A stretch of 64,000 nt of DNA. It comes from an uncultured Candidatus Saccharibacteria bacterium. GTDB taxonomy: Bacteria; Patescibacteriota; Saccharimonadia; Saccharimonadales; Saccharimonadaceae. Position 1 is the stretch's first letter, and the number at the start of each line of letters is the position of its first letter. Below are positions 19,715 to 52,942 of this stretch, in pieces. The notes beneath the pieces were generated by a model, which worked only from the letters and a program-made list of their open reading frames with translations, ran no database searches and was not told the origin of the DNA. The position numbers were made by a program, and so were the translations under genes. Where the stretch lies: the NCBI GenBank assembly GCA_963526965.1, contig CAURPS010000003.1, positions 56,303-120,302 of the forward strand, read 5' to 3'.

Positions 19715-19942
19715 ATACCCTCCTTTGTTTCCGCTATTATAGCACAGTTAGCGTAAGCTTTTTGAAATATCTGAAATCGCATGGTCGATGTAGGATAAAA
19801 AACACGCTGATAAGCCATTTTACTACTGTTAAACGCTCATATAGTCTCGCTCAATCCCCCTTGGGATATCATTGCAATCAATTTTGCCACGTAGTAAGCT
19901 AAGAGAATCTGAATCTCACAGCCTCTCTCGGTACTGGATTTT

Positions 19943-20059
19943 CCTCCAAACTTTACCTTGATGAGCTGTGAAATCAATCGTTACGATCAATTGCTGGCTC
20001 TGACACAAGAGGGCCGGTGTCTCGTAGACATCGACCCTTTAGTGATCTATCGGAGGGGT
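19943..20059. repeat. copy 1 of a conserved structured element (CCTCC ... GGAGGGGT bracket with two internal hairpins)
   Basis: Shares ordered blocks with 37068-37197: GAG(C)TGTGAAA, a hairpin, CAAGAGG, a hairpin ending ATCGACCCTT, TAGTG-TC, GGAGGGGT. About 46 of 60 positions are identical over the 3' half by hand alignment. Confidence 0.55.
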
Positions 20060-20165
20060 GTAGAAAGACAGAGCGTGAAGATTTTGCAATTTAGGTAGAG
20101 GCGATGAAGGCCTGATAATCTCTTGCAAAAAGCCAATAAGATTTACTTTGCAGCGGCGAACAATA

Positions 20166-23810: not shown

Positions 23811-26117
23811 ATGATGGCTCAATCATACTCCACCGCCCACCCCTTCTCGACATATTGGCGATATGTCCTTGCTGGTGTTTTGTGTGTAAGTTTATTTGCT
23901 GCAACCATCCTCTCCCGCCCAGCCCAGGCAGTGACGGCAGCCGATTGGCGAGCAGGTAATATCGTTGATGATTTGCTCTTTACCAATAGCGATGATATGT
24001 CGGTGGCAGATATTCAGGCGTTTCTCAACAGCCTCAACCCACAATGCGACACTTATGGCCGGCAGCCTGCTGCCGAACATGGCAGGCGCGATATCAGCCG
24101 GGCGCAGTATGCTGCCGCTCGAGGTTGGCATGGGCCGCCATATGTCTGCCTCAAGGACTATTATGAAGTACCTAAATACACACCGGGCAATTACATCCCT
24201 GCTAATAACTTCGGTGGAACGATCCCCGCTGGAGCAGTCAGTGCCGCGCAAATTATCTACGATGCTGCCAAGCAGAATAATCTCAACCCCAAGGTGTTAT
24301 TGGTGAAGATCGCTACCGAGTCGGCTGGCCCGCTCACCTCTGACACCTGGCCCCTCCAAAACCAATACACCTATGCCATGGGTTCGCACTGCCCCGATAG
24401 TGGCCCGGGCGGCAGCGCCAATTGCGATCGCAACTATGCTGGCTTCTCGATGCAAGTTGCCTCAGGAGCACAGCTCATCCGTTGGTATCTGGATAGTATG
24501 CAGCAACCATGGTGGTCGTACAAAAAGCCGTTTGCGACCAATCGTATCCTATGGAATGTGGTGCAGCGAGGCTGCGGCGCTGGCGATGTGTATATCGAGA
24601 GCAAGGCCACAGCGGCACTCTACACCTACACACCGTACCAGCCTAATCAAGCAGCACTGGCCAATATGTATGGCCTGGGTGATCATTGCAGCGCCTATGG
24701 CAACCGCAACTTCTGGCGAGTGTGGAACGACTGGTTTGGCTCGACCCAGCATAGTCGACCACTTATCAGCTTCCGATCGCACAGCAGCTACATCGGCTGG
24801 ACAGGGGTAATTCATAACCGTGGCATTACAGGCGTCACTGGTCAAAGCAAGGCAATGCAAGCTCTCACGATCGATGGTGAGGTAACTTATGCCTCATACA
24901 GCAACGAGCGCGGTTGGCAGCCCACTGTGCAGGGTAGTATGCAATCGGGCACAACAGGGCTTGGCCGACCAATCACCGCCGTCAAGATCCAGCCAACTGG
25001 TACTCTCGCCCAGGCGTACGACATCTACTATCGCGCCCACGTGAGCTACATTGGCTGGATGGGCTGGGCTAAGAATGGTGAAGTGGCTGGTGTGACTGGC
25101 GGAGCTAACAATGCTATCGAAGCGGTCGAAATAAAGCTTGTGCGCAAAGGAACGCCTGCACCTGAGTCATCTGGGGTAGCGTATAAAAATATTGCAACAC
25201 ATGGCGACCCATCACCCCTCAAGCTCTCACTCAGCTCACATGTTGGTATGGTTGGCTGGCAGCCAGAAGTACGTGATGAGATGATGAGCGGCACCACTGG
25301 CCAAAGCCGCCGCATCGAAGCCATCAAAGCATCGCTCCACAACACAACGGGCCTGCCAGGTAACATCCAATATTCATCACATGTTAGCTACGTCGGCTGG
25401 CAAGATTGGAAGCAAGCAGGCGACGCATCCGGCACCACAGGACAGTTCCGCTCCATCGAGGCAGTCCGCTTCTTACTCACCGGCAAACTCGCTACTGCAT
25501 ACGATATCTGGTACCGAGGTTACTCACAATATGTCGGTTGGATGGGCTGGGCCAAGAATGGCCAACCAGCTGGCTCGGCTGGCGCCTACCGGCAGCTCGA
25601 AGCACTGGAGGTGCGCCTTGTGCCGAAGCATACACTCAGCCTGCCTGGCGGTGCCTTTTATAACCCAACCAACACTGCCGTGCCCGATCTCTATCAACTG
25701 AGCTACGCTGCCCACGTAGGCTACATTGGCTGGATGCCCGATGTATCGCACCCCATTATGGCTGGCACCACTGGCAAATCGCGCTACCTTGAGGCAATCC
25801 GTCTTGGCAAAGCCGTATCGCTGCGCGATGGTTCACCCATCACCATCCAGTGCGAAGCAAAAACTGCTGGCCAGTGGCTCCCACCAGTCACTCTCTCACC
25901 ATCGCAGCCCTGTGGCACGACTGGTCAGCGCAAAGCGCTCGAAGCCCTCAAGCTTAACCTCAGTCCCGCCGACGCCACTCGCTACGATATTTATTACAAC
26001 ACTCACCTCTCCTGGGTAGGTTGGCAGGGCTGGAAAAAGAATGGCGAAGTAGCTGGCGACCGACCCGGTTCGCATATCGAAGCAGTGATGATGAAGCTGG
26101 TGGAGAAGAGTAACTAG
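23811..26117 (+). CDS. secreted surface protein: about 300-aa unknown N-terminal domain plus 9 ChW (clostridial hydrophobic W) repeats
   Basis: Signal peptide VLCVSLFAATILSRPAQA. Nine repeats of the type Y-x-[AS]-H-V-[SG]-Y-[IV]-GW ... G-x-[ST]-G ... [IL]EA[IVL]. Confidence 0.8.
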   Translation: MMAQSYSTAHPFSTYWRYVLAGVLCVSLFAATILSRPAQAVTAADWRAGNIVDDLLFTNSDDMSVADIQAFLNSLNPQCDTYGRQPAAEHGRRDISRAQYAAARGWHGPPYVCLKDYYEVPKYTPGNYIPANNFGGTIPAGAVSAAQIIYDAAKQNNLNPKVLLVKIATESAGPLTSDTWPLQNQYTYAMGSHCPDSGPGGSANCDRNYAGFSMQVASGAQLIRWYLDSMQQPWWSYKKPFATNRILWNVVQRGCGAGDVYIESKATAALYTYTPYQPNQAALANMYGLGDHCSAYGNRNFWRVWNDWFGSTQHSRPLISFRSHSSYIGWTGVIHNRGITGVTGQSKAMQALTIDGEVTYASYSNERGWQPTVQGSMQSGTTGLGRPITAVKIQPTGTLAQAYDIYYRAHVSYIGWMGWAKNGEVAGVTGGANNAIEAVEIKLVRKGTPAPESSGVAYKNIATHGDPSPLKLSLSSHVGMVGWQPEVRDEMMSGTTGQSRRIEAIKASLHNTTGLPGNIQYSSHVSYVGWQDWKQAGDASGTTGQFRSIEAVRFLLTGKLATAYDIWYRGYSQYVGWMGWAKNGQPAGSAGAYRQLEALEVRLVPKHTLSLPGGAFYNPTNTAVPDLYQLSYAAHVGYIGWMPDVSHPIMAGTTGKSRYLEAIRLGKAVSLRDGSPITIQCEAKTAGQWLPPVTLSPSQPCGTTGQRKALEALKLNLSPADATRYDIYYNTHLSWVGWQGWKKNGEVAGDRPGSHIEAVMMKLVEKSN

Positions 26118-36464: not shown

Positions 36465-36986
36465 TTATTGACGCTGATAATCATCCGCCACCCGCACAAT
36501 ATCATCCTCTGTTGATGGGTGCGCTGGGTCAGTGTGCTGCCAGAGTTCAGCAATAATCGTTGGGTGCTGAGCATCACCGCAAGCACGGTGGCGCTCCCCT
36601 GCCGCCAGCCTTACGATATCACCTGCCTGAGCTGGTGTTGGCTGGGCTGGTAGCTCGTCGCTCGTGTTGCAATAGTATGCACCAGCGGTCAGAAAACGCC
36701 ACAACTCCGCTCGCCGATGATGATATTGCCAGCTCAGGCGCGCCCCTTGCCGAACAAAGAGAATCTTGGGACTGAGCGGTGCATGAGCATTGTCCTTAAC
36801 TATTACTTCCGATACTGCAAAGAAATCCGCCGCAAACTGCTCCGCCTGTGCCGGGTCAATACAGATAAACCCACCCCAGGGCCGCCGGCTGTCTGTCCCA
36901 GTGATGTGGTAGCCCACCTGGTGAAGAATATATTCTATCTGCGCCAGATTCGTCTGAACTGCTATGTGTTGCGGTAGTTCCGTCAT
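36465..36986 (-). CDS. cupin-domain protein, type II phosphomannose isomerase-like
   Basis: 173 aa. RPWGGFICI ... LSWQYHHRRAELWRF resembles the cupin core of mannose-6-phosphate isomerase / GDP-mannose pyrophosphorylase C-terminal domains. Confidence 0.6.
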   Translation of the reverse strand: MTELPQHIAVQTNLAQIEYILHQVGYHITGTDSRRPWGGFICIDPAQAEQFAADFFAVSEVIVKDNAHAPLSPKILFVRQGARLSWQYHHRRAELWRFLTAGAYYCNTSDELPAQPTPAQAGDIVRLAAGERHRACGDAQHPTIIAELWQHTDPAHPSTEDDIVRVADDYQRQ

Positions 36987-37067
36987 ATTACTCGTAATAT
37001 GGGTATTATAGCACTTTTATATACAGTTTGTGTTTTTATTATTTATTGGAATTTGGTAATTCCTAAT

Positions 37068-37197
37068 CCCCGCTCACTACCCCTCCGATGGAGTGTGAAA
37101 ACAGATTGCAATAATCTGTTTGCAGCCCAGCGCAAGAGGTCGATATCTGGGAGATATCGACCCTTATAGTGTTCCTGAGGAGGGGTAGTGAGCGGGG
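37068..37197. repeat. copy 2 of the conserved structured element: 19-bp perfect closing stem around a three-way junction
   Basis: CCCCGCTCACTACCCCTCC (37068-37086) is the exact reverse complement of GGAGGGGTAGTGAGCGGGG (37179-37197). Inner hairpins are AAACAGATT-gcaat-AATCTGTTT (37099-37121) and GGTCGATATCT-ggg-AGATATCGACC (37138-37162). Confidence 0.6.
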
Positions 37198-37296
37198 GTA
37201 ATATTACAGAGATGTTACTTTAAATTTAATGCCACCCACCTTGACACACGCGTGTCCATCTGGCGCTTTTGGTGCAGGAGCTGTATACTAGAGGGT

Positions 37297-38400
37297 ATGA
37301 GTTTTCATATTGCAATCGACGCCCGCGTGATCAATTCTGGCACGGGCACATATGTCGTGAAGCTGCTCGAGCAGCTGGAGCGGCTTGATACGACTAACCG
37401 CTATAGCATCCTTGTCCCCACCAAGGATCGCGACTATTGGCAGCCACACAACCCCAACTTCACCATCCGCACGGTCGACTTTGCCAATTATTCGCTGGCG
37501 GAGCAGCTTGACTTCCGGCGCTACCTAGATGAGCTAAAGCCCGACTTAGTGCACTTTTGTATGCCGCAGCAACCGGTCTTTTACAGAGGTAAGCACGTTA
37601 CCACGGTGCACGATATGACCCTTCTCAAGACATATAATTCTGACAAAAATTGGCTGGTGTTTCATCTTAAGCAATTGGTGGGGCGCTGGGTGTTTCGGCG
37701 GATCGCCCGCACCAGCGAGCATATCATCACTATTTCTCAGACGACCAAGCAAGAATATCAGAGCTTTACTAAGATCCCCGATAGCAAAATCTCGGTCATC
37801 TACGAGGCGGGCGAGGCACACCCTGGGCAGCTCACGCCATATATCGACCTTCCCTTCAAGCGATTCATCATCTACGTTGGGCAGCAGCCTGATTATAAAA
37901 ATCTGCGGCGCCTCGCGGCCGCACACCAGCAGCTGCTGAGCCGCTGGCCAGACCTTGGCCTGGTGTTTGTGGGGCGAATGAACGAAGACACCAAGCGCAA
38001 CCAAGCCTACTACCAGCAGCAAGGCTATCGCAATATTCACTTCACTGGGTTTATCCCCGACGGGCAGCGCGATTGGCTGCTTAACAAAGCCGAGGCATAC
38101 GTCTTTCCATCATTAATGGAAGGATTTGGCCTGCCGCCACTCGAGACGATGGCGTATGGCACGACACCTGTTATATCGAGCAATACCTCGTGTATGCCCG
38201 AGATTTTGGGCGATGCTGCCGAGTACTTCGACCCACTCGATGTCGATGCCATCGCTAGCGCGATCGACCGCGTCCTCAGCCAACCAGCTCGCCGTCGCGA
38301 GCTTATCGTCAAAGGCAAAGCCCAAGCTGCTCGCTACTCATGGGAGCGCTGCGGCAAGGAAACGTTGGCGGTGTATGAGCGAGCATTGCGGCAATCATAA
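37297..38400 (+). CDS. GT4-family glycosyltransferase
   Basis: MSFHIAIDARVINSGTGTY ... EGFGLPPLETMAYGTTPVISSNTSCMPEILGDAAEYFDP. TATACT lies 7 nt upstream of the ATG at 37297. Confidence 0.8.
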   Translation: MSFHIAIDARVINSGTGTYVVKLLEQLERLDTTNRYSILVPTKDRDYWQPHNPNFTIRTVDFANYSLAEQLDFRRYLDELKPDLVHFCMPQQPVFYRGKHVTTVHDMTLLKTYNSDKNWLVFHLKQLVGRWVFRRIARTSEHIITISQTTKQEYQSFTKIPDSKISVIYEAGEAHPGQLTPYIDLPFKRFIIYVGQQPDYKNLRRLAAAHQQLLSRWPDLGLVFVGRMNEDTKRNQAYYQQQGYRNIHFTGFIPDGQRDWLLNKAEAYVFPSLMEGFGLPPLETMAYGTTPVISSNTSCMPEILGDAAEYFDPLDVDAIASAIDRVLSQPARRRELIVKGKAQAARYSWERCGKETLAVYERALRQS

Positions 38401-38666: not shown

Positions 38667-39131
38667 TTACTCAGCCTCTTCCAGCTGGATAATCACATGG
38701 CGCTCGCGGCCTTCGCCTTTGGAGACGGTCGTGATGCCAGCTGCGTCGGCAGCGACTTGGTGGACGATGCGCCGATCGGCTGGGTTGAGGTGGGCGGTGT
38801 AGGGCTCACCAGTTGCACGCACACGCTCGATCCAGCCGCGGGCTTTATCGGCAACCTTTTCTTCGTGCTGCTTTTTGTAGTCGGCGATATCAACACTCAC
38901 GCGCACTATGGCCGCGTGCTGCGCCCGCAGTGCCGACGAAACGATATATTGCAGCGCCCGCAACGTCTCTGCCCCGCGGCCAATCAAGATACTATTGATG
39001 TCTGACGACTCTACCCGAAGTGTCATTACCTCGCCATCGTCATCACCCGATACCGCAATATTTTCGCCAAAAAACGAGATGATGTTCTGGAGATATTCTC
39101 GGGCAAATGTTACTGATTGGTATCGATCCAT
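38667..39131 (-). CDS. jag: Jag/KhpB-type RNA-binding protein (KH + R3H)
   Basis: 154 aa. R3H-type motif NPADRRIVHQVAAD. Conserved position downstream of yidC. GAGGAGGAG SD. Confidence 0.85.
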   Translation of the reverse strand: MDRYQSVTFAREYLQNIISFFGENIAVSGDDDGEVMTLRVESSDINSILIGRGAETLRALQYIVSSALRAQHAAIVRVSVDIADYKKQHEEKVADKARGWIERVRATGEPYTAHLNPADRRIVHQVAADAAGITTVSKGEGRERHVIIQLEEAE

Positions 39132-39148
39132 CGGGTTCTCCTCCTCTG

Positions 39149-40069
39149 TTATTCTTTGGCTTTGATGCGTGTGATGTTGGCTTCTGTAGCCGCTTTGGCG
39201 CGCTTTTTCGTCGACTTTTTCTTGGCAGGCGTTGTAATATCTACTTCATCAGCAATTGCTTCAAGCTCTTGCTTATCTTTACGGAGGAGATATGACTGCT
39301 GCGCTACCGCTACTAGGTTAGATGCCGTGTAGTAGAGCGCCAACGCCCCTGGCAGACCCATCATGATCATAAACATCATCACTGGCATAAACTTCGCCAT
39401 ATTGCGCATCATTGCGGCGTTCATCTCGGCAGGGTCAGCCTCTTTGCCAGCGGCCGTCTCCTTCATGATGTCGCGGAAACGCTTGGCACTCTTACCGGTT
39501 GGCATAGTTTGCTTAGTCATCACATACTGGGTGAGAGCCGAGATGATTGCGAGAGCGAGGAGCGGCCAGACAATGCCATCCTTGCCAAGCGCTACCTTGG
39601 TGAGGTCGATAAAGCCCAGCATGGTGTGATTAAACTGTTCAGGGTGGTGAATGATCGTCTTGATGGCATCGATATTCTTGAGCGGCTCGTAGATGTAGCG
39701 TGCCACTTGGTCGCGGTGGAGCGAGATGATCATAATCACCTGGTAGAGGCCAATGAAGATCGGAATCTGAATGAAGAGCAGGAGAATCGAGCGAAATGGC
39801 TTGATACCGTACTTCTTATACAGTTCCATCTGCTGCATCGCTTCTACTTGGCGGTTGCCATTAGCTGCTTTCTTAATCTTGGCGAGCTCAGGCTGCATCT
39901 TGCGCATCTGTTTGCTCTGGTGGAGCTGCCGCTTGAGCAGTGGGTAGAGCAAAAAGCGAATGATAACCGTAAAGATAATCACCGCCACGCCAAAGTCACC
40001 ACCAGGGATGATACTATAGATAAGCAAAAGTGCGTTAAAAATGGGCTGTAAAATTATTGTCTCAAACAT
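39149..40069 (-). CDS. yidC: membrane protein insertase YidC (short, monoderm type)
   Basis: MFETIILQPIFNALLLIY ... PLLKRQLHQSKQMRKMQPELAKIKK. I chose the ATG at 40069 because GGAG lies 6 nt upstream; the ATG at 40111 overlaps a TACAAT -10 box. Confidence 0.9.
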   Translation of the reverse strand: MFETIILQPIFNALLLIYSIIPGGDFGVAVIIFTVIIRFLLYPLLKRQLHQSKQMRKMQPELAKIKKAANGNRQVEAMQQMELYKKYGIKPFRSILLLFIQIPIFIGLYQVIMIISLHRDQVARYIYEPLKNIDAIKTIIHHPEQFNHTMLGFIDLTKVALGKDGIVWPLLALAIISALTQYVMTKQTMPTGKSAKRFRDIMKETAAGKEADPAEMNAAMMRNMAKFMPVMMFMIMMGLPGALALYYTASNLVAVAQQSYLLRKDKQELEAIADEVDITTPAKKKSTKKRAKAATEANITRIKAKE

Positions 40070-40380
40070 ATTCACTCCGATTACTGCATTTATTGTATCA
40101 TAGGTGGCCACGGAAGATGAATTGTGGCGAAGTATTTTTGGAAATCAATCGTTGATATATGCGATACACTACTGCCAATACTACATATAAGAGTATTTAT
40201 AACCTTAGAAAAGAACACTCACCTAGCTTGCCTTTCATTGGTATAGAATGACAAGAAAAGAATTTTTTATAAATGTTTTGAGTTCTATTTACCACTGTTT
40301 ATACAGAACTATTTGGCATTGATTTGACTCAAAGTACTATGAAGTAGGTCGCGCAAAGAAGACTGAAAGGATATAAGATT

Positions 40381-40767
40381 TTATTCTGCCTTATCTCTTT
40401 CATCACTTGGCGTTGCGTCGCCAGGGCAAATACCAGCTCGCACAAGGAGATTTTTTACCACCAGCGCAAGCTCATCGTGCGGCGTGGTAAGGACTTCGCT
40501 TGAGGTGATGATTAGTGCAACGTCGTACACCCCTGTAAAGTACGGCACGTGCTGGCGTAGAATCTCATAGACGCGGCGGCGAATGCGGTTGCGCCCCACC
40601 GCAGATTTGTGCACCTTTTTGCTCACCACCACGGCAATGCGTGGCATGCGCCGACGGCGATTAGCTACGTATTTGACGGTCAGCAGGCGCGAACGCTCGG
40701 CACTCGCATGGCGATACAAATAGCGTAGCCCGCCATAGCCATGAAACCGATATCGTTGCTGTAACAT
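40381..40767 (-). CDS. rnpA: ribonuclease P protein component
   Basis: 128 aa, basic. VSKKVHKSAVGRNRIRRRVYEILR is the RnpA signature. Sits between rpmH and yidC. Confidence 0.85.
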   Translation of the reverse strand: MLQQRYRFHGYGGLRYLYRHASAERSRLLTVKYVANRRRRMPRIAVVVSKKVHKSAVGRNRIRRRVYEILRQHVPYFTGVYDVALIITSSEVLTTPHDELALVVKNLLVRAGICPGDATPSDERDKAE

Positions 40768-40799
40768 AGCTGTATTATAGCAAATCTACCCGCAAGCAG

Positions 40800-40832
40800 A
40801 GATAAAATAACCCACCAAGCAGTGGGTTATTT
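40800..40832 (-). terminator. hairpin/attenuator between rpmH and rnpA
   Basis: 10-bp stem AATAACCCAC / GTGGGTTATT with a 6-nt loop, followed on the minus strand by TTTTAT. Confidence 0.5.
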
Positions 40833-40854
40833 TCGTCATTTTGCTATCATCTCA

Positions 40855-40995
40855 CTACGAGAGTGCGAGGCGAGCGCGGCCCTTGGCGCGGCGGCGCTTG
40901 AGCACATTGCGGCCTGCCTTGGTGGCAATCCGTGCCCGAAACCCGTGCGTCCGAGCACGATGACGAGTGTGTGGTTGGTGAGTTCGTTTTGGCAT
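40855..40995 (-). CDS. rpmH: 50S ribosomal protein L34
   Basis: Not in the ORF track because it is under 60 aa. My hand translation is [46 protein letters not shown], stop TAG at 40855-40857. Confidence 0.92.
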
Positions 40996-41097
40996 ATCAT
41001 TGCTATTATACGCGATTGCTCCAGATCTTTCAACTTTTCACTCGCTTGGTGGATTTTGTGCTCCGAGCAACCTCCGTCATAAGCATAGCCAAATTGT

Positions 41098-41222
41098 TTA
41101 TCCACATTTGTTCGCGAGTTATCCACACTTTAACAGAGGTAATGCATTTTTGTGGAAAAACTCCACCCCTGTTGCTCTTCTTGCACTCATCCCGTTGTTG
41201 TATTTCTCACGGTTGTGGAAAA
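41098..41222. promoter_or_regulatory. DnaA-box cluster in the rpmH-dnaA intergenic region (dnaA promoter / oriC part 1)
   Basis: Perfect TTATCCACA at 41098-41106 and 41119-41127. TGTGGAAAA at 41151-41159 and 41214-41222. Confidence 0.7.
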
Positions 41223-41283
41223 GTCGGTTTTTTCTTATACTAAAAGGAGTCATTGTATAACAAACAAGGAGTAGCAAAAGCCA

Positions 41284-42672
41284 GTGTACCACAGCCTGTG
41301 GAAGAGTGTTTTGGGTGAGATTGAAGTGTCGATACCAAGCGGTATTTTTTCGACGTGGTTTGCCAATACCGAGATGCTCAGCAATAAAGACGGGGTGATC
41401 ACCATTGGCGTAGCGAATATCTTTGCGATTCGCCAGTTTGAGGTGCGCTATGATAGCATCGTCAAAGAAGCGCTCCAGCATAGTGGTGTGGAGGTGTCGC
41501 GCATCGCTTATGTGGTAAACAAACACGGCAAAAAACGCACCGTCATTAGCCGCGAAACCACTGGCCAGCCAGCCGACCGCGTCGAGGAACGAGCGGCGGC
41601 GCTCATCAGCAAGCCAACTACCTCATCACACTCTAGCTCTAGCTCTACCACACCAGCAACCAGCCTCAATGCGCGCTATACCTTCCAGAATTTCATTGTC
41701 GGCTCGAGCAACGACCTCGCCTACACCGCCTGCCAAGCGGTCGCACATAGCCCTGGTACGAAGTATAATCCCCTCTTCATCTACGGTGGCGTCGGTCTCG
41801 GTAAGACACACCTCATCCAAGCGGTAGGCAACGAGATCCTTGCGCGCGACCCAAGCAAGAAGGTCGCCTATCTGAGCTCGGAGACGTTTGTCAAAGAATT
41901 TATCGAGTCGATCCGTTTCAAAAAGGCTGGCTTTTCTGACCGGTATCGCAATGTCGATGTACTGATCGTCGACGACATGCAATTTATTGCTGGGCGTGAG
42001 AAGACCCAAGAGGAGTTCTTTCACACCTTCAATGCCCTCCATCAGGCTAATAAGCAAATTATCATCGGTAGCGACAAGCCACCACACAGCATCCCTACCC
42101 TGACGGAGCGCTTGCGCAGTCGCTTTGAATGGGGGATGGCGATCGATATCCAGATGCCCGACTTTGAGACGCGGTGCGCGATCGTCGAGACCAAAGCGAG
42201 CTTCGCTGGCGTGACACTTGAGCGCGACACCGTGGAATACCTGGCTAAGAACGTCAAGACAAATATCCGCGAGCTCGAGGGTGCGCTTAATCAACTTCTT
42301 GCTTATGCTGAGATGCGCGGCGTCGCTCCTGACGTAATGACAGCGGAGGGTTTGCTTGGTAACGTCCGGCGTAGTCGCCCCCAACACCTTACTGCCAAGC
42401 AGATTATCGACAAAACTGCCCGCCATTTCCAGATCGATAGCAAAGAAATCTGTGGTGCTAAGCGGGCTAAGCATATCGTTGTACCGCGGCAGATTGCCAT
42501 GTATTTACTGCGCAGCGAGCTCCATATGAGCTTCCCACAAATTGCCAATGAGCTGGGCCGCAAAGACCACACGACCGCCATCCATTCAGTCGAAAAAATC
42601 GAAAAGTCCATCAAGCTTGACTACCTCATCCGTGAGCAGGTCGCTGACATCCGGGATAAGCTCTATGCCTAG
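41284..42672 (+). CDS. dnaA: chromosomal replication initiator protein DnaA
   Basis: 462 aa with a GTG start. Walker A GGVGLGKTHL, the AAA+ domain, and C-terminal DNA-binding KDHTTAIHSVEKI. Confidence 0.95.
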   Translation: MYHSLWKSVLGEIEVSIPSGIFSTWFANTEMLSNKDGVITIGVANIFAIRQFEVRYDSIVKEALQHSGVEVSRIAYVVNKHGKKRTVISRETTGQPADRVEERAAALISKPTTSSHSSSSSTTPATSLNARYTFQNFIVGSSNDLAYTACQAVAHSPGTKYNPLFIYGGVGLGKTHLIQAVGNEILARDPSKKVAYLSSETFVKEFIESIRFKKAGFSDRYRNVDVLIVDDMQFIAGREKTQEEFFHTFNALHQANKQIIIGSDKPPHSIPTLTERLRSRFEWGMAIDIQMPDFETRCAIVETKASFAGVTLERDTVEYLAKNVKTNIRELEGALNQLLAYAEMRGVAPDVMTAEGLLGNVRRSRPQHLTAKQIIDKTARHFQIDSKEICGAKRAKHIVVPRQIAMYLLRSELHMSFPQIANELGRKDHTTAIHSVEKIEKSIKLDYLIREQVADIRDKLYA

Positions 42673-42696
42673 GCCGTGTGTTTTTTTCGCGACGCC

Positions 42697-42950
42697 TGTG
42701 GAAAAGCCGTGTATAGTAAGCCGTATAACCAGCGGACAGCTCGTGGGCAGTCATCCACAGCACCAAGAGCGCACCGCCCTCCAGCCTTATTGGCTGGTGG
42801 ATAACCACCACTTCTCCCCGGCTTATCCACGCCAGCGATCGCAGCGTTTTGCACAAGTAGTGAGCAAGTCGTACCCCTGTTATTCATCATGGTTTCCACA
42901 GTATCCACAGCACCTATTACTATATCAACCATATAAAAGAAAGGATTGTA
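42697..42950. promoter_or_regulatory. DnaA-box cluster plus AT-rich stretch in the dnaA-dnaN intergenic region (oriC part 2)
   Basis: TGTGGAAAA 42697-42705, TCATCCACA 42751-42759, GGTGGATAA 42796-42804, TTATCCACG 42823-42831, GTTTCCACA 42892-42900, GTATCCACA 42901-42909. An AT-rich stretch ctattactatatcaaccatataaaagaaa follows. Confidence 0.7.
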
Positions 42951-42953
42951 GAT

Positions 42954-44054
42954 ATGAAACTGTCTGTCACACAAGAAAACCTTGCACGAGCGCTCGGGGT
43001 TGTCGGGCGAGTTGCGAGCAATCGAGCTGGCCTGCCGATCTTAAATAATATACTATTCCGCACCGAAGGTAATCGCCTTCTTCTCGCTGCGACGAACTTA
43101 GAGATTGCCGCTACCTATTATATTGGCGCAAAAGTAGAGACACCGGGGGTAATTACCCTGCCGGCTAAACTTGTGAGCGAATTTGTGGCGAATTTGCCGA
43201 AGGGGCCGATCGAGCTTGAGACCGATGGCGCGCGTATGACACTGACGTCTGGCGGGTACACTTCGACGATTAATGGCGTGGTAGCGGATGACTTTCCGGA
43301 GCTGCCGACGATTGATGAAGAACAATCGGTGCGCTATAGCATTGCCGCGGCGGACTTTAAGCAGGCGGCAGCGCAAACCTTGGTGACCTGTAGTAATGAT
43401 ACGACTCGGCCTGTCCTGACTGGCGTGTATTGGCACACAGTGGATGGTGCGCTGTATATGGCAGCGACGGATGGCTATCGCTTGGCTGAGCGGCGTTTGA
43501 TGGCAAGCCAGAGCCAGATTGCAGCCATTGTGCCAGCGAGCAGCCTGCAAGAAGTGCTGCGCTCGCTCAGTGACGGCACAGAAGAGGTGGAGGTGCTCTT
43601 TGACGAGACGCAGGTGCGCTTTCGGCTGGAGGAGGTAGAGATTACCAGCCGCTTAATTGATGGCACCTACCCAAATTATCGGCAGCTCATCCCTGCTCAG
43701 TCAGAGACAAATGTGATGCTGGCGGCACGCGATTTCTCACGCGTGGTAAAGGTGGCTGGGCTCTTTGCCCGGGAGTCTGGTGGCAGTGTCACGCTCACCG
43801 CTGACCATGAGGCGCAGAAATTGCGGATTCACTCCGTTGCGTCTGAGCTGGGCGAAAATACCTCCGAGGCAGAAGCTGAGGTGTCGAGTGATGGGCAAAT
43901 TACGCTCAATTCGCGGTACATTAGTGATGCACTAGGCGTTCTTGATGGTGAGACGATCACCTTCCGCTTTAGTGGCAAGCTCTCGCCCTGCGTCTTAACA
44001 GTCGCTCAGCCCGAGCCAAACTACATTCATATTATTATGCCACTGAAGAGCTAG
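42954..44054 (+). CDS. dnaN: DNA polymerase III beta sliding clamp
   Basis: 366 aa. MKLSVTQENLARAL ... YIHIIMPLKS is the typical DnaN N- and C-terminus. Confidence 0.95.
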   Translation: MKLSVTQENLARALGVVGRVASNRAGLPILNNILFRTEGNRLLLAATNLEIAATYYIGAKVETPGVITLPAKLVSEFVANLPKGPIELETDGARMTLTSGGYTSTINGVVADDFPELPTIDEEQSVRYSIAAADFKQAAAQTLVTCSNDTTRPVLTGVYWHTVDGALYMAATDGYRLAERRLMASQSQIAAIVPASSLQEVLRSLSDGTEEVEVLFDETQVRFRLEEVEITSRLIDGTYPNYRQLIPAQSETNVMLAARDFSRVVKVAGLFARESGGSVTLTADHEAQKLRIHSVASELGENTSEAEAEVSSDGQITLNSRYISDALGVLDGETITFRFSGKLSPCVLTVAQPEPNYIHIIMPLKS

Positions 44055-45800: not shown

Positions 45801-47163
45801 TGACTGTCCTCGCTAATACAACACCCGGGTTTCCAAGCATCCACTCGACTGTTCCTTGTTTAATGTAGGTTGGTGAGTAATCAAATTGCGATGCCTGTGC
45901 ACCAACAAATCCATTACCAAGGTCACCAGTATAGATAAGAGTATGACCTTGCCCATTATTATAAATTAGAATATCACCAGGTTGTAAGTCGGACATTCCA
46001 GGAGACTCTTTAGTATAGAATTTCTCTGGGTGGCTTAAGACATATGGGCGCTGAACTGCCGTTCCGGCTGGTGGATAATTCGGATCTGCCCCACTCATGC
46101 GCATCACTGTTGCAACGTATTTGCCGCAATCGGTGTAGTCACCACCCGCTTCTGGGTTATACTGCTGGCGGGCTTGTTTATACTCTGGTTTTGCACCATC
46201 ACTGTCGACATGTCGTCCATCCTCCCAGGCAAGACTCTTGGCCGTCTCGACGATTGATCCACCGGCGGCACTCTTGCTGCCGTTTGCGGTGCAGCCTGTG
46301 GCTGATGCATTTTGGGTGTTGGCGCCATTGTTATTGCCGCCTTCGACTTGGATTTGGGATGAAGGCGGAGATAAGTTCTCCTCTTTGACAATTTGCTCGA
46401 TCTTGTCGATATACTCAGTGACAGTCGAGACATACTGGCTGTCGGTCGCATAGCCAGCATTTTTGATCTCTTGGAGGTATTTGCGTGGGTCACCAGGGTA
46501 TTTGAGGGCTTCGCTATAGCGTGAGTTGCTGGTGATGAATTCGCCATAGCCAAGCCAGCCAGCCTCGACGGTAGGATATTTGCGGAAGCCATCGACGATT
46601 GTTGTTCGGCCAGAGGCGTATTCCTCCTCGGTCTCCATATCGATCACCTCACCCGACCAGTTCCCGCCAGCCTTGATACCATGGAAATTATTTGCCTTGA
46701 CGGTAAGTCCAGATTTGCCATAACCAGACTCAATAACCCCCTGAGCAAGAACTGTCTCGTATGGCGTGCCATACTTTTTGTTCGTTTCGACAGCCATCTT
46801 GACGTATTTGCGGACGAAGTCTTTGAGGTCTTCTGCCCCAGTGGCGCTACTACCATCGCTACTGCTGGTGCTGCTGGTAGAGCAGGTTGCTGCGTCGGGG
46901 TCGAAATGCTCGATATTGTTGCCAGAAAAGAACCCTGCATCTAGAGCTGAAGCAGGAGTTGATACGAGAGAAAACACTATCGCAAAAACAAGAGAGCTTA
47001 TTCGATAGATAGTTGTGCAGTGAGAAAAGAGTTGTGTTGATGGAGAAAAAAGAGACGAAAAGCGAAGCAGTTGTTGGTGGGTGTATATTTGGCAGCGAGT
47101 GACAAGCACACAAAGAGAGTAGAAACACTGAGCAAAAATAGCATGAGTCCACCGTATGATCAT
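45775..47163 (-). CDS. secreted two-domain peptidoglycan hydrolase: N-acetylglucosaminidase (FlgJ/LytD-type) + NlpC/P60- or CHAP-like cysteine peptidase
   Basis: YGTPYETVLAQGVIESGYGKSGLTVKANNFHGIKA is the glucosaminidase signature. The C-terminal DCGKYVATVM ... GDILIYNNGQGHTLIYTG gives a Cys...His papain-like pair. I chose the ATG at 47163 because of its ATGA overlap with the upstream stop; the start remains uncertain. Confidence 0.7.
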   Translation of the reverse strand: MIIRWTHAIFAQCFYSLCVLVTRCQIYTHQQLLRFSSLFSPSTQLFSHCTTIYRISSLVFAIVFSLVSTPASALDAGFFSGNNIEHFDPDAATCSTSSTSSSDGSSATGAEDLKDFVRKYVKMAVETNKKYGTPYETVLAQGVIESGYGKSGLTVKANNFHGIKAGGNWSGEVIDMETEEEYASGRTTIVDGFRKYPTVEAGWLGYGEFITSNSRYSEALKYPGDPRKYLQEIKNAGYATDSQYVSTVTEYIDKIEQIVKEENLSPPSSQIQVEGGNNNGANTQNASATGCTANGSKSAAGGSIVETAKSLAWEDGRHVDSDGAKPEYKQARQQYNPEAGGDYTDCGKYVATVMRMSGADPNYPPAGTAVQRPYVLSHPEKFYTKESPGMSDLQPGDILIYNNGQGHTLIYTGDLGNGFVGAQASQFDYSPTYIKQGTVEWMLGNPGVVLARTVNGNTQSKT

Positions 47164-50126
47164 GATGACCCTCCAACACGTCGAGCATACTCCCAGTGCC
47201 ATGCCTCTGGTTTGCTGCCATTTGGTTCGGCCCATTCGGGATGGACGTAGCCATATTTATGCGCATTGGCTTTGAGCCAATTGTATGTAGAAGAACCAAA
47301 GTCTCCCACACTAATATCTGCTGCAAGCCCCCAGCCATGGTTCGAACTACACGGTGGCGCTGGCTTGGCGAGGCCACCTTGGTATAGTGGGTCACCTGGT
47401 GTCGCGTATGCTATTTGCCGTTGGCAGTCTCGGTATGCTTCGTTAATACCGAAATCTGCACCAGTTTCTGCTTTGTATGCTTTGTTCATTTCTTCCATAG
47501 CGGCCGCAGCTTGCTTGTGCATCCTCTCGCCGGACGAAAATGACAGAGCTACCAAGTCGCCTTCTGCTAACTCGCCGTTTTTAAGGCCGTTCCATGTTGA
47601 TATAGAATCGCCACCTTCTGCAGCAGGCTGGGCTTGGTTAAATTCTGGCTCGCCAACTGCCGGGCCGCTGGGGGTACTGCTGCTAGATTGGCTTGCACCA
47701 CCTCCACCAGAGATCGGTTCATTGTCCATAGTGTCGACGACACGTTGGTCGATTGTGAAGAGTGCAGCATTGACTTTTTCCTCAGAGTCAAACTTGCAAT
47801 AAGCGGTGTCGACGCCATTCTCGCCATCAGTACCTTTGCCACACTTCTCTTGCCATTCTTTGAGCGTGCCGCCAGTTGCTTCGCCTGTTTCTTCGTTGTA
47901 TTGCCCAGCGAGAGATTGGGCAACCTCGTCAGGGTCTTTATCGAGATTGAGTGCACCATACGATATATTACAAAATGGCCCAGCAGCGACGTCTTTGGGG
48001 ATATTTGGGTCATCGCATGCTTGCCAAATTTTTTTCATGCGATCTGTCTCGGTATTAGCGCTGACTTTATTACCAAAGAAAGCCGGTACGATATTCTTAG
48101 GGAGAGACACAAGATTATGAACGAAACTACTAAGATTAGAAAAGCTACCCATATAGGGGATGAATGAACTGTAGAGACTTCCCATAAAGGTATATGGCGA
48201 CGTTGCGTCAAATGGACTCCGCTCAACGCGTTGCTCAGCAGCATAGGCAAGGTTGAGACGAGCTGTTTCTCGTTCGTAGGCGATTGTTTGGTCGACATTG
48301 AGCATACCGTTGCCACCCGCCGCTGCTGCTTCAGAGAACATATTTACTGCACCACTCGTGAGGGCATCTCCAGCATCTTCACCAACAGTAGCACTACTCA
48401 CAAGAGTGCCCGCCATAGAATTTATGAGCTTACTGAGGATTGGCGCAAGCACAGCAGAAATAACAGGAGCAGCTAAGTTTGAAACCAATTCACCGACGAC
48501 GCTTGTCCATCCACCAACGACACTCATGAGGAGCTGACCGCCAGTGCTGTTGATGGCTGTGCAGGATGTCTTTAGTGCGCTAATATTAGCTCCAAGGGCA
48601 TTGGCAACGCCGCTCATCTTCCGAGCCCACCCTCCGCCAGGGACGTACTCCGTCCAATTGGAGGTACCAGTTGGGGCTATCTCTTTCATTAGGCCATATT
48701 TAAGACCCATTCCGTCGGTTGCGGCCTTTTTGGTCACGTTGCCAGATTTGTTGACAAGTACAGTAGTAAGAATCGTCCCAAGTACAGCAACAGCCATATA
48801 GTCTGTTGAACCGGCCTTAATATTATCTGCCATTGTAAAGAACATCATGGCATAGCTAATAACCTGTGTCATTTGGATGAGGCGAATCGTCTTGCTAATA
48901 GACTGAGCACCATCTTGTACCATACAGAGGCCGCCAGCAATCATGGCGACGATATTGCCAGTCTTGCCAACGCCATTTTTGATAATATTGGCTGCTGCTT
49001 CTTTGCTGATAGATTTTGTTGCTCCTTCGGCACCTTCACTTACTGCTTCTTTTGCGGCTTTGCCAACATCAGTGTCTTCAGTAACCTTTTCTTTGCCTTC
49101 ATTGTCATTTTCCTTGGCTTCGTATCTGCCATTCATTTCTTTGCCTTTGGTATTTTTGTCGATGCTTTCGCGGACTTCTTTCTCACTTTTGGCGCCAGCC
49201 AGCTTGTTTTTCTTGGTGAGGGAGAATTTTTTTATGACGCCATTATTAAATACTTTGTCGAAGAAAGCGACCCAGCGCGGTGCATATGCGCGGTGCATAA
49301 TTGCTCTGAGCTCAGGCTTCTCATAATATAATTTTTTGAAATCTTTGGCGCTGATTGTTTCCTGAGTCCCATTAGGGTAAGTGACGCGCAGATTCTCGAT
49401 TTTTTCACCGATTGTGGACTTTTTCGCATCAAACCCATCGGAAGCTTTGACGATATTCCCTTCCTTGTCGAGGGCTTCAACATTATTTTTTTCAAATTGC
49501 TTTAGCAGCCGATTCGAAACACGATTATAGCGGCATCGTACATTCACAACCGAACAAAGGCCATCGGTTGCAGTGTTTTGGATACGCTTAAACATCACCT
49601 TATTAGCGCGTCGTTCGAAGCTGGTATTTTGTGAATTCCAGTGGTTGGTGAGATTTTCTTTAATATGAAGCAAAAGTAGACTTGGCCCACCAAAAAACGA
49701 GATCATTGAGCCACCGCCAAGCAAAATAGCGCCAAGGATTCCCATTGGCCCACCCTTCTTAGAGAATATCGCACTCCGCGCTTTGGCAAAGCGAGATTTG
49801 GGCTCAGAGAGTTTACTGTCTGGCGGGACTACCTTGTTGAACCAGTTATTATCGCTCCAGTTGCTTCCTGGCGCGCCCTCCTGGCCTCGGACGGAGTTGG
49901 CGTAGTCGCTGCCAGTTGCGCCAGTGCTGCTGGTGTTGCTATGGGCGGATGAACCACTCCCGCTGTTCTCGCGCGACTGGAGGTCTTGGGCGGTGTTGGA
50001 TTGGCTGTAATCACCACTGCCAGCGTGATTATTCCGGCCGGCGAAGGTGTCGTTGCTCCAATGCGTATTTCCCGGATTGTGCCGGTCGAGATCGGGTTTT
50101 TGCTGAGAGGGAATGGGGGTAGGCAT
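47160..50126 (-). CDS. 988-aa membrane protein with a C-terminal VanY/M15B-type D-Ala-D-Ala carboxypeptidase-like domain
   Basis: S/G/N-rich N-terminus, TM GILGAILLGGGSMISFFGGPSLLLL, and further hydrophobic segments mid-protein. The C-terminus has NEAYRDCQRQ, SNHGWGLAADIS, WLKANAHKYGYVHP and EAWHWEY. Confidence 0.7.
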   Translation of the reverse strand: MPTPIPSQQKPDLDRHNPGNTHWSNDTFAGRNNHAGSGDYSQSNTAQDLQSRENSGSGSSAHSNTSSTGATGSDYANSVRGQEGAPGSNWSDNNWFNKVVPPDSKLSEPKSRFAKARSAIFSKKGGPMGILGAILLGGGSMISFFGGPSLLLLHIKENLTNHWNSQNTSFERRANKVMFKRIQNTATDGLCSVVNVRCRYNRVSNRLLKQFEKNNVEALDKEGNIVKASDGFDAKKSTIGEKIENLRVTYPNGTQETISAKDFKKLYYEKPELRAIMHRAYAPRWVAFFDKVFNNGVIKKFSLTKKNKLAGAKSEKEVRESIDKNTKGKEMNGRYEAKENDNEGKEKVTEDTDVGKAAKEAVSEGAEGATKSISKEAAANIIKNGVGKTGNIVAMIAGGLCMVQDGAQSISKTIRLIQMTQVISYAMMFFTMADNIKAGSTDYMAVAVLGTILTTVLVNKSGNVTKKAATDGMGLKYGLMKEIAPTGTSNWTEYVPGGGWARKMSGVANALGANISALKTSCTAINSTGGQLLMSVVGGWTSVVGELVSNLAAPVISAVLAPILSKLINSMAGTLVSSATVGEDAGDALTSGAVNMFSEAAAAGGNGMLNVDQTIAYERETARLNLAYAAEQRVERSPFDATSPYTFMGSLYSSFIPYMGSFSNLSSFVHNLVSLPKNIVPAFFGNKVSANTETDRMKKIWQACDDPNIPKDVAAGPFCNISYGALNLDKDPDEVAQSLAGQYNEETGEATGGTLKEWQEKCGKGTDGENGVDTAYCKFDSEEKVNAALFTIDQRVVDTMDNEPISGGGGASQSSSSTPSGPAVGEPEFNQAQPAAEGGDSISTWNGLKNGELAEGDLVALSFSSGERMHKQAAAAMEEMNKAYKAETGADFGINEAYRDCQRQIAYATPGDPLYQGGLAKPAPPCSSNHGWGLAADISVGDFGSSTYNWLKANAHKYGYVHPEWAEPNGSKPEAWHWEYARRVGGSS

Positions 50127-50132
50127 GGTGGG

Positions 50133-52927: not shown

Positions 52928-52942
52928 TCTCCTTCTTATTTC

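What the first reader, a model, noticed from the sequence alone, without database searches (positions are those of the whole stretch)
37068..37197. 130-nt element with a perfect 19-bp closing stem around a three-way junction, in the divergent spacer between a PMI-like cupin gene and a GT4 gene
CCCCGCTCACTACCCCTCC (37068-37086) and GGAGGGGTAGTGAGCGGGG (37179-37197) are exact reverse complements. Between them lie two further perfect hairpins: a 9-bp stem at 37099-37121 and an 11-bp stem at 37138-37162. These are separated by single-stranded blocks GATGGAGTGTGA, GCAGCCCAGCGCAAGA and CTTATAGTGTTCCTGA. No annotated feature type explains it. It is too long and branched for a terminator, lies in a 310-bp promoter region, and has a diverged second copy at 19943-20059. 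Candidates are a cis-regulatory leader RNA for sugar-nucleotide or glycan genes, a small ncRNA, or a miniature inverted-repeat element. The perfect stems lean towards a DNA-level or very young element.
Basis: seen in the sequence. Interest (0 to 1): 0.65.

Follow-up and report, generated by a model that had tools for sequence, protein, structure and literature searches.

The report
Dispersed palindromic repeat of Saccharibacteria
The 130-nt hairpin is real, but it is one copy of a previously undescribed ~157-nt branched palindromic repeat scattered through the intergenic DNA of Saccharibacteria genomes, not a regulator specific to the sugar genes beside it.

Summary
There is a perfect 19-bp closing stem, two inner hairpins and a diverged second copy. 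The fold z-score is about -10 on either strand.

It is not a leader RNA for glycan genes. A pattern taken from the two copies found more than 110 loci, and all the real ones lie in Candidatus Saccharibacteria MAGs, with several copies per genome. The family unit is ~157 nt:
- a long P1 stem with a C/T-rich 5' arm and a G/A-rich 3' arm;
- two hairpins, P2 and P3;
- short conserved junctions.

Pairing holds in 92% of cells, and 27 of 51 pairs change on both sides.

The copies behave like a mobile or decaying repeat:
- They are almost always intergenic, in any orientation, next to unrelated genes.
- They are present or absent between close relatives. One clean empty site carries a single copy of an 11-bp flanking repeat.
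- Some copies are internally deleted or truncated.
- 7 of 18 orthologous sites hold the element in opposite orientations in different genomes.
- Resident copies diverge about as fast as their flanks.

No Rfam family, promoter, terminator, phage or plasmid match, or neighbouring transposase was found.

Best reading: a new MITE/ERIC/BOX-like structured repeat family. How it moves, and whether it acts as RNA, remain open.

The parts
37051..37206 (+). Copy A: a full-length member of the repeat family (covariance-model positions 1-157)
   Evidence: cmsearch with family model R1 gives 148.3 bits, E = 4e-38.
37068..37086 (+). P1 5' arm, C/T-rich. It is perfect and 19 bp here; the family consensus is about 25 bp with a conserved U.G pair and an A.G mismatch.
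   Evidence: (repeat I1).
37087..37095 (+). GAT internal-loop strand (opposite TGA 37176-78), the inner P1 triplet GGA (pairs with TCC 37173-75), and junction J1/2 GTG
   Evidence: Folds; family alignment and pair counts (helix 3 is 98% paired).
37096..37124 (+). P2 hairpin: TGAAAACAGATT / loop GCAAT / AATCTGTTTGCA. In this copy it is 12 bp with one A.G mismatch.
   Evidence: repeat I5. Covariation is seen (helices 4 and 5; pairs such as AU/UA/CG and AU/GC).
37125..37133 (+). Junction J2/3, GCCCAGCGC, a conserved block
   Evidence: Alignments A2 and A3.
37134..37165 (+). P3 hairpin, AAG(A)GGTCGATATCT GGG AGATATCGACCCTT. The distal stem varies among copies by transitions with compensation.
   Evidence: searches (repeat I6; helix 6), and the copy A orthologues.
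37166..37178 (+). Junction J3/1 ATAGTGT, inner P1 TCC, and the internal-loop strand TGA. The spacing TAGYG-N7-GGWGGG is constant across the family.
37179..37197 (+). P1 3' arm, G/A-rich
37043..37232 (.). Approximate block present in the window but absent from the same spacer in related strains. The element plus about 25 and 35 nt of private flank is replaced there by a few bases.
   Evidence: Contigs of runs X1 and X13 join 37028/37030 to 37257 with only 31-34 intervening letters. Most of those letters align to window 37030-37042 and 37233-37256.
19925..20078 (+). Copy B: an old, degenerate family member. P1 and P2 have decayed, while P3 and the blocks CAAGAG, CGACCCTT-TAGTG and GGAGGGG are kept. 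It is collinear in four other genomes.
   Evidence: 56 bits. Orthologues L030, L042, L045 and L061. The fold z-score is only -1.05.
36465..36986 (-). Left neighbour of copy A: a 173-aa cupin protein with a weak MannoseP_isomer match. Not part of the element.
37297..38400 (+). Right neighbour of copy A: a GT4 glycosyltransferase. Not part of the element.
   Evidence: the gene is called as 367 aa in L001.

Best explanation
Copy A is one insertion of a non-coding, ~157-nt palindromic interspersed repeat specific to a group of Candidatus Saccharibacteria genomes (one host genome is labelled Nanosynbacter).

The unit is a three-way junction. It has a long closing helix P1, two hairpins P2 and P3, and short conserved junction sequences. 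I infer about ten or more copies per ~1-Mb genome.

Shown here:
- The family exists, is multicopy and is confined to this group of genomes.
- Its helices are kept by compensatory change.
- Copies sit in intergenic DNA in any orientation, next to unrelated genes.
- Copies are gained or lost between close relatives.
- Copies flip or are replaced in the opposite orientation at the same site.
- Copies decay by internal deletion and truncation.
- Resident copies diverge at about the rate of their flanks.

Inferred:
- The element spreads, or spread, as selfish DNA moved by an enzyme encoded elsewhere.
- That enzyme, or the hairpin-templated repair typical of DNA palindromes, needs the folded form. 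This would explain why pairing and junction motifs are preserved in the lineages that multiplied.
- The long inverted arms of P1 allow occasional in-situ inversion.
- Any effect on the cupin and GT4 genes is a by-product of where this copy landed. It separates their start codons by an extra ~190 bp and places a very stable hairpin between them.
For: **Family and host range.** The scan found 116 or more stretches. All are Saccharibacteria MAGs except two chance hits that lack the rest of the element.

**Copy number.** The core has 5-10x the depth of its flanks in three samples. Many MAG contigs end inside a copy.

**Structure.**
- 92.2% of cells are paired, against 85.6% in shuffles and 46-53% when partners are slid.
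- 27 of 51 pairs have changes on both sides.
- 230 compensated cells are seen, against 92 expected.

**Context.**
- Arrangements are < E < 27, < E > 22, > E < 20 and > E > 13. About nine in ten copies overlap no called ORF.
- Neighbouring gene functions are unrelated.

**Gain and loss.**
- Copy A is absent in X1 and X13.
- Locus L103 is empty, with one copy of GTGGTGTCAAG. L110 and L076 are filled, with that sequence (one base different in L110) on both sides of a ~230-bp insert.
- Flanking direct repeats of 9-11 nt are in excess: 14 of 87 against 6 of 259 in the control.

**Decay.** P1-only derivatives arose by deletion between the internal 8-nt repeat GGAGTGTG at two loci. There are also core-only copies and a 5'-truncated copy.

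**Orientation.** 7 of 18 orthologous groups hold both orientations. One group shows flank homology running to within 0-18 nt of the element ends.

**Rate.** Orthologous identity is 0.87-0.90 for the element, 0.84-0.88 for the near flanks and 0.83-0.90 for DNA further out. Paralogues are 0.77-0.80 identical.

**Negative searches.** No Rfam family matched. No promoter or terminator consensus lies inside the element.
Against: - No target-site duplication occurs at a fixed distance from the element ends. The flanking repeats lie 0-80 nt away, so the true ends of a mobile unit are undefined.
- The terminal helix varies between copies with compensation, whereas a transposase-recognised TIR is normally conserved.
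- No multicopy or transposase-like ORF lies near the copies. Only 8-kb tiles around copies were available, not whole genomes.
- No copy was found in phage, plasmid or viral collections that could act as a vector.
- The single clean empty site could equally be a deletion between pre-existing direct repeats.
- Conserved junction motifs and a conserved U.G plus A.G pair in P1 would also fit a functional RNA.
Confidence: 0.6

Rival explanations
1. It is a family of structured non-coding RNAs, either trans-acting small RNAs or RNA processing and stability elements. In this reading the three-way junction and its conserved junction nucleotides are the functional unit, and the variable closing helix only has to pair. 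The genomic copies would be paralogous genes or modules that act at the RNA level, for example as an RNase III substrate or a protein-binding scaffold.
For: - There is strong compensatory variation in all three helices, with well-kept junction blocks (GATGGAGTGTG, CAGCCCAGCGCAAGAGG, CCCTTATAGYGTTCC).
- P1 carries a conserved U.G pair and an A.G mismatch that make the + strand hairpin better than the - strand one.
- G.U outnumbers A.C in helices, 167 against about 122-157.
- Changes in P3 are almost all transitions, as expected for evolution through wobble intermediates.
- Contigs from runs labelled RNA contain the element.
Against: - Orientation relative to neighbouring genes is random and flips between species.
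- There is no promoter or terminator consensus. The -10-like signal upstream is weak, 8 of 29 at -17 to -14.
- The RNA-labelled contigs run 60-200 nt beyond the 5' edge of the element at low depth, so no discrete 5' end is seen.
- Resident copies evolve no more slowly than their flanks.
- Many copies are truncated, internally deleted or absent in relatives.
- Four of seven copy A orthologues carry C.A mismatches in P3 on the + strand. These would be G.U pairs only on the - strand.
Confidence: 0.2
2. It is a family of invertible DNA switches (invertons). In this reading the P1 arms are the inverted repeats recognised by one master invertase, and flipping the ~105-bp core changes expression of flanking genes, giving phase variation of surface structures among others.
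For: - 7 of 18 orthologous loci occur in both orientations.
- In the L012/L080 versus L105/L106 group the flanks are conserved to within 0-18 nt of the element and the outer P1 stays in place while the inside is reversed.
- All copies share the same inner P1 sequence, as the targets of one recombinase would.
- Both window copies lie next to surface-glycan genes.
Against: - In most flipped groups the two classes also differ by 10-110 nt of unrelated private flank on each side. That fits replacement or re-insertion, not a simple flip.
- Copy A has one orientation in all 17 assemblies examined.
- Samples X1, X2 and X7 each show a single orientation at the L012 locus.
- The core holds no promoter or terminator consensus.
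- Many copies lie between convergent genes.
- An invertase has no need for the conserved inner hairpins.
Confidence: 0.1
3. It is a cis-regulatory leader, a riboswitch or attenuator, for sugar-nucleotide or glycan genes.
For: - Copy A lies 80 nt upstream of the cupin gene and 100 nt upstream of the GT4 gene.
- Copy B lies upstream of rmlD-GT8 on the - strand.
Against: - Most family members lie next to unrelated genes, and often at their 3' ends.
- Related strains keep the same cupin-GT4 pair without the element.
- There is no Rfam match.
- No terminator or anti-terminator arrangement with a U tract is present.
Confidence: 0.03

Closest known systems
ERIC / IRU, and BOX and RUP elements (enterobacterial and pneumococcal intergenic repeats)
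   Same: They are 100-150-nt imperfect palindromes, non-coding, present in tens of copies and confined to one bacterial group. They lie in intergenic DNA in either orientation, fold into very stable hairpins, show presence or absence between relatives, and have an unresolved or trans-supplied means of spread.
   Different: There is no sequence similarity and the phylum is different. This element has a defined three-way junction with covarying helices, and a closing helix that differs from copy to copy. BOX is modular (boxA-B-C). RUP has IS630-like ends with a TA duplication.
MITEs such as the Correia elements (Neisseria) and Nezha (cyanobacteria)
   Same: They are small, non-autonomous, multicopy and insertion-polymorphic, have inverted-repeat ends, and can alter expression of neighbouring genes.
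   Different: Classical MITEs have conserved TIRs matching an IS and a fixed-length target duplication directly at the ends. Here the outer helix is variable, no fixed-boundary duplication is found, and no partner IS was seen.
REP/BIME elements mobilised by RAYT, and IS200/IS605-derived palindromic elements
   Same: Recognition would be of a folded single strand (hairpins with conserved unpaired bases and covarying stems) rather than of a duplex sequence. There is no regular target duplication.
   Different: REPs are 20-40 nt single hairpins, often in clusters. No Y1/HUH transposase gene was identified here. There is no strong bias with respect to GC skew (65:42), whereas single-strand transposition is usually strand-biased.
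Invertible promoter switches (fimS, and the Bacteroides and C. difficile invertons)
   Same: A short segment bounded by 19-30-bp inverted repeats is found in both orientations at the same locus, and many loci share one repeat consensus.
   Different: No promoter is recognisable inside. No within-sample mixture was seen. Private flanks differ between the orientation classes at most loci. No linked invertase was found.
Rickettsia palindromic elements (RPE)
   Same: This is also a palindromic repeat family that proliferated in a small, host-dependent genome.
   Different: RPEs often insert in frame into coding genes. About nine in ten of these copies overlap no called ORF.

Membership tests
MITE | Short, non-coding and multicopy within a genome | tested here: met
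   The unit is 157 nt with no ORF. The core is at 5-10x flank depth, and several copies occur per MAG.
MITE | Insertion polymorphism between related genomes | tested here: met
   Copy A is absent in X1 and X13. L103 is empty where L110, L076, L099 and L072 are filled.
MITE | Conserved terminal inverted repeats shared by all copies | tested here: not met
   The inner 10 bp of P1 are conserved, but the outer helix and the ends differ between locus groups with compensatory change. Flanks beyond P1 are not self-complementary.
MITE | Target-site duplication of fixed length directly flanking the ends | tested here: inconclusive
   No boundary pair gives matching k-mers in more than 14 of 82 copies. 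However, 9-11-nt direct repeats at variable distance are in excess, and one empty site has a single copy of the repeat.
MITE | A related autonomous IS with the same ends | tested here: inconclusive
   No multicopy or transposase-like ORF occurs in about 0.9 Mb of tiles around copies. Whole genomes were not available.
Inverton (invertible switch) | A segment bounded by inverted repeats found in both orientations at one locus | tested here: met
   This holds between genomes: 7 of 18 locus groups, with one group showing precise boundaries.
Inverton (invertible switch) | Both orientations coexist within one population or clone | tested here: not met
   X1, X2 and X7 show a single orientation at the L012 locus. 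Copy A has a single orientation in 17 assemblies. This rests on contigs only, so it is a weak test.
Inverton (invertible switch) | A promoter or other directional signal inside the segment, and a dedicated invertase | tested here: not met
   No sigma-70 or terminator consensus lies inside the element. No recombinase is consistently linked to it.
Riboswitch / cis-regulatory leader | A constant position and orientation in the 5' leader of functionally related genes | tested here: not met
   All four gene arrangements occur and the neighbours are unrelated.
Any Rfam 15 family | A score at or near the family's gathering threshold | tested here: not met
   Nothing was found at gathering threshold in the window except a tRNA. 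Only noise appears at E <= 10 on copy A, copy B and a consensus-like copy.
Independent small-RNA gene | Its own promoter and terminator, and a discrete transcript | tested here: inconclusive
   No consensus promoter or terminator was found. A weak -10-like cluster occurs at -17 to -14 in 8 of 29 copies. Contigs from RNA-labelled runs run past the 5' edge. No stranded read data were available.
Retron msr/msd | A reverse-transcriptase gene immediately downstream of the structured RNA | tested here: not met
   The neighbours are a cupin and a GT4. The neighbours of other copies have no RT.
Integron attC site | Arrays of sites separating gene cassettes next to an integrase, with R''/R' core sites (GTTRRRY) | tested here: not met
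   The copies are solitary and dispersed, with no arrays. The ends lack the GTTRRRY core.
REP/BIME | A 20-40-nt palindromic unit with a conserved 5' tetranucleotide, plus a RAYT gene in the genome | tested here: inconclusive
   The unit is four times longer and branched. The presence of a RAYT gene could not be examined without whole genomes.

The most novel reading that the evidence does not exclude
The family is not just selfish DNA. It would be a functional structured nucleic acid of episymbiotic CPR bacteria, in one of two forms. Either it is a new class of ~160-nt three-way-junction RNA made from about ten or more loci per genome. Or it is a set of recombinase-driven invertible switches that diversify expression of neighbouring genes, surface glycans among them. 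The conserved junction motifs would be the binding site of a dedicated protein.
Probability: 0.15. Interest if true: 0.75.

Novelty: new member of a known kind. Interest (0 to 1): 0.45.

Why it matters
Saccharibacteria are ultrasmall episymbionts with genomes of about 1 Mb. Non-coding DNA is scarce in such genomes, and the searched literature describes no repeat family for them.

A well-defined, genus-level repeat has several practical and biological consequences:
- It explains recurrent contig breaks in MAGs of this group.
- It gives a handy marker for strain typing.
- It marks sites of intergenic turnover and inversion.
- It warns annotators not to read each copy as a local riboswitch.
- Its unusual anatomy (conserved junctions, freely varying but always paired helices, frequent reversal at the same sites) makes it a tractable case for asking how palindromic repeats spread and persist without an obvious transposase. 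Genetic tools now exist for these organisms.

Tried and rejected
- **Rfam.** Searches at gathering and permissive thresholds on copy A, copy B and a consensus-like copy returned only noise. Hammerhead-like reading of GAUG...GAAA was considered and dropped, because the junction lengths do not fit and no ribozyme model scores.
- **Contig breaks at 37113.** I first suspected these signalled inversion or a long palindrome. They are explained instead by k = 31 graph branching at the first fully repeated 31-mer (37083 + 30).
- **Strand from wobble pairs.** The bias is weak (167 G.U against about 122-157 A.C), and copy A orthologues point the other way.
- **Internal or upstream promoter, and terminator.** None was convincing.
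- **Fixed-boundary target duplications.** None was found.
- **Extension of the palindrome into the private flanks.** None was found.
- **Homology of private flanks between orientation classes, in either orientation.** None was found at five loci.
- **A neighbouring transposase.** None was found.
- **Replication-strand bias.** It is weak, 65:42.
- **Phage, plasmid and IMG/VR carriers.** None was found.
- **Metagenome scan for a reversed copy A.** Five loci were found, all in the window's orientation.
- **RNA-labelled public runs.** Only low-depth, strandless contigs were available, so they are uninformative about transcript ends.
- **Literature.** Six searches found no description.

Full report
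**1.
- Arms 37068-37086 and 37179-37197 are 19 nt and perfectly complementary.
- Hairpin 37138-37162 has an 11-bp perfect stem.
- Hairpin 37099-37121 has a 9-bp perfect stem, extendable to 12 bp with one mismatch.

The 146-nt stretch folds at -80.3 kcal/mol as + strand RNA, against -40.7 +/- 4.0 for dinucleotide shuffles (z = -10.0). The - strand gives z = -9.9 and single-stranded DNA z = -10.3. The structure therefore exists equally on both strands and at the DNA level.

The diverged second copy is real (nhmmer E = 2.5e-5; alignment). The neighbours are a 173-aa cupin with a borderline mannose-6-phosphate-isomerase match and a clear GT4 glycosyltransferase.

**2. It is one member of a large family.**
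No Rfam family matches, at curated or permissive thresholds.

Laying public contigs on the region was the turning point. Strains about 90-95% identical to the window join 37028/37030 directly to 37257, so the cupin-GT4 spacer there lacks the element. The element core also has about five times the depth of its flanks, and it continues into several different flanking sequences.

A pattern built from the blocks shared by all these copies (GACCCTT-TAGYG-N7-GGWGGG) then hit at least 116 stretches among 185,579 species genomes. All are Candidatus Saccharibacteria MAGs except two chance hits that lack the rest of the element. One host genome is labelled Nanosynbacter. Several genomes contribute five to eight tiles each.

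**3. Anatomy of the family.**
A 53-sequence alignment (A3) gives a 157-nt unit with these parts:
- **P1:** about 25 bp, C/T-rich on the 5' arm and G/A-rich on the 3' arm.
  - It has a nearly invariant inner part, CACTTCATCC / GGAGGGAGTG, that holds a conserved U.G pair and an A.G mismatch.
  - A small internal loop (GAU opposite NNN) lies between that part and a GGA/UCC triplet at the junction end.
- **J1/2:** GUG.
- **P2:** 12-14 bp, with loop GYAAU.
- **J2/3:** GCCCAGCGC.
- **P3:** about 13 bp.
- **J3/1:** AUAGYGU.

For this structure, 92.2% of cells are standard pairs, against 85.6% in shuffles and 46-53% when partners are slid. 27 of 51 pairs show changes on both sides. 230 compensated cells are seen, against 92 expected (RNAalifold agrees).

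A covariance model (R1) scores copy A at 148 bits and copy B at 56 bits, and finds nothing else in the window. In about 0.76 Mb of family loci it finds further full copies, copies that have lost the outer helix, and 62-nt remnants that keep only P1.

Copy A is a full-length member whose P1 is shorter and perfect. Copy B is an old, decayed member that is collinear in four other genomes.

**4. Behaviour of the copies.**
- **Position and orientation.** About nine in ten copies overlap no called ORF. All four arrangements relative to the neighbouring genes occur: 27, 22, 20 and 13.
- **Neighbours.** These include methionyl-tRNA formyltransferase, PilC, LigA, a GH1 hydrolase, a KwaB defence protein, an HxlR regulator, a Xer-type recombinase, ndk and a spermidine-synthase-like membrane protein. 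This removes the idea of a glycan-specific leader. Both window copies lie near glycan genes because positions 1-36 kb of the window form one surface-glycan cluster.
- **Gain and loss.** Locus L103 has one copy of GTGGTGTCAAG where L110 and L076 have a ~230-bp insert with that sequence (one base different in L110) on both sides.
- **Flanking repeats.** Direct repeats of 9-11 nt flank 14 of 87 copies, against 6 of 259 in mismatched controls. They lie at variable distances, and no fixed-boundary duplication exists.
- **Decay.** At two independent sites the core has been deleted between an internal 8-nt direct repeat, GGAGTGTG. L059 keeps only the 3' third.
- **Rate.** Orthologous copies are 0.87-0.90 identical. 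That is no more than their near flanks (0.84-0.88) or DNA further out (0.83-0.90). Paralogues are 0.77-0.80 identical.

**5. Orientation changes at the same site.**
In 7 of 18 orthologous locus groups the flanks align in one orientation and the element in the other. This was found by an all-against-all flank analysis and checked by direct BLAST for eight pairs.
- In the L012/L080 versus L105/L106 group, flank homology runs to within 0-18 nt of the element. The outer P1 stays put while the inside is reversed, and one genome (L032) combines the left arm of one class with the right arm of the other. That is an in-situ flip by exchange between the P1 arms.
- In most other groups the two classes also carry 10-110 nt of unrelated private flank on each side, homologous in neither orientation. 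That fits replacement or independent insertion better.

I found no sign that flipping is ongoing. Copy A has a single orientation in all 17 assemblies seen, including five from a dedicated metagenome scan. Three samples each show one orientation at the L012 locus. These are contig-level tests and cannot exclude a minor reversed fraction.

**6. What it most likely is.**
The sum of these properties matches the bacterial interspersed palindromic repeats (ERIC, BOX, RUP, Correia and other MITEs, RPE):
- multicopy and lineage-restricted;
- intergenic, orientation-free and indifferent to neighbours;
- gained, lost, truncated and replaced;
- drifting at the local rate.

I therefore read copy A as one insertion of a selfish or formerly selfish repeat (confidence about 0.6).

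The compensatory pattern needs an explanation. My inference, which is not shown, is that the folded form is required by whatever enzyme moves the element, or that pairing is restored by hairpin-templated repair of DNA palindromes, or both. Lineages that multiplied would then differ by paired changes, while resident copies simply drift.

It is not a textbook MITE. The terminal helix is variable, no regular target duplication or partner transposase was found, and no phage, plasmid or viral carrier was found.

**7. Rivals.**
- **A structured-RNA family (0.2).** The covariation, the conserved junctions and a mild G.U excess keep it alive. Against it:
  - orientation is random and unstable;
  - there are no promoter or terminator signals;
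  - RNA-labelled contigs run past the 5' edge of the element;
  - there is no extra conservation in place;
  - copy A orthologues have P3 mismatches that are wobble pairs only on the - strand.
- **An inverton family (0.1).** This is suggested by section 5. It lacks a directional signal, a linked invertase and within-sample mixtures.
- **A glycan leader RNA.** This is effectively excluded.

**8. Novelty and limits.**
Six full-text searches found no description of such an element in Saccharibacteria, and Rfam 15 has no model for it. I class it as a new member of a known kind.

Main limits:
- only 8-kb tiles around copies were available, not whole genomes;
- public read data were limited to strandless contigs;
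- all carrier genomes are fairly close relatives (flanks about 85-95% identical), so the covariation counts are inflated by shared ancestry.

Noticed in passing
window 37083-37113; loci L006-L009: Independent Logan and ENA contigs of other strains all stop at 37113 (one at 37126). This is exactly the last 31-mer that still contains a base unique to copy A. The breaks are therefore repeat-induced graph breaks, not structural variation.
   Followed up: yes
L033, L049, L063, L073, L085, L091, L093, L100, L113: Nine GTDB MAG contigs begin or end inside a family member. The repeat is a recurrent cause of fragmentation in Saccharibacteria assemblies.
   Followed up: partly
family consensus; window 37090-37097 and the 3' arm of P1 in typical copies: An 8-nt direct repeat, GGAGTGTG, occurs once in J1/2 and once in the 3' arm of P1. 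It gives the 5' arm an alternative local partner. It is also the site of recurrent core deletions (L090 and L082 at one locus, L100 at another).
   Followed up: partly
window 37138-37162 versus L127, L129, L130, L131 and L057: Orthologues of copy A differ in hairpin 2 by blocks. GATATCT/AGATATC (window) and GACACCT/AGGTGTC (L130) are both perfect. Four others combine GACACCT with AGATATC or AAATATC. This looks like recombination or conversion between hairpin variants rather than single substitutions.
   Followed up: partly
L032:7041-7203: One family member carries short internal tandem duplications (GATGGAGTGTC-GATGGAGTGTG and CAAGAGGCGTCAAGAGG). This points to slippage within the element.
   Followed up: no
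window 38667-44054: This is the chromosomal origin neighbourhood: jag (KH/R3H) 38667-39131, yidC 39149-40111, dnaA 41284-42672, and a probable dnaN at 42954-44054. Copy A lies only about 4 kb from dnaA.
   Followed up: no
window 1-36000: A very large surface-glycan region. It has two RmlD paralogues (13635-14492 and 18857-19714), RmlA, two 4,6-dehydratase-type enzymes, GlmS, Wzy_C-like and Bac_transf proteins, a Wzt ABC ATPase, GT2, GT4 and GT8 enzymes, a fused double GT4 of 738 aa, and a ChW-repeat protein (23811-26117).
   Followed up: partly
window 47160-57910: A cluster that looks like conjugation or type IV secretion: a 988-aa protein with a C-terminal VanY peptidase domain, a TraG/VirB4-like P-loop ATPase, a PrgI-family protein, and a 1011-aa protein with no Pfam match.
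   Followed up: no
window 20166-21392 (-): A 408-aa ORF immediately beside copy B has no Pfam match at E <= 0.001.
   Followed up: no
L021:64-1462: An ORF with large-serine-recombinase domains (Recombinase, Zn_ribbon_recom) lies about 190 nt from a family member. I did not test whether it is linked to the element. No recombinase was consistently linked to family copies.
   Followed up: no
L035:4930-6046: A KwaB-like (Kiwa anti-phage defence) gene lies next to a family member in a Saccharibacteria MAG.
   Followed up: no
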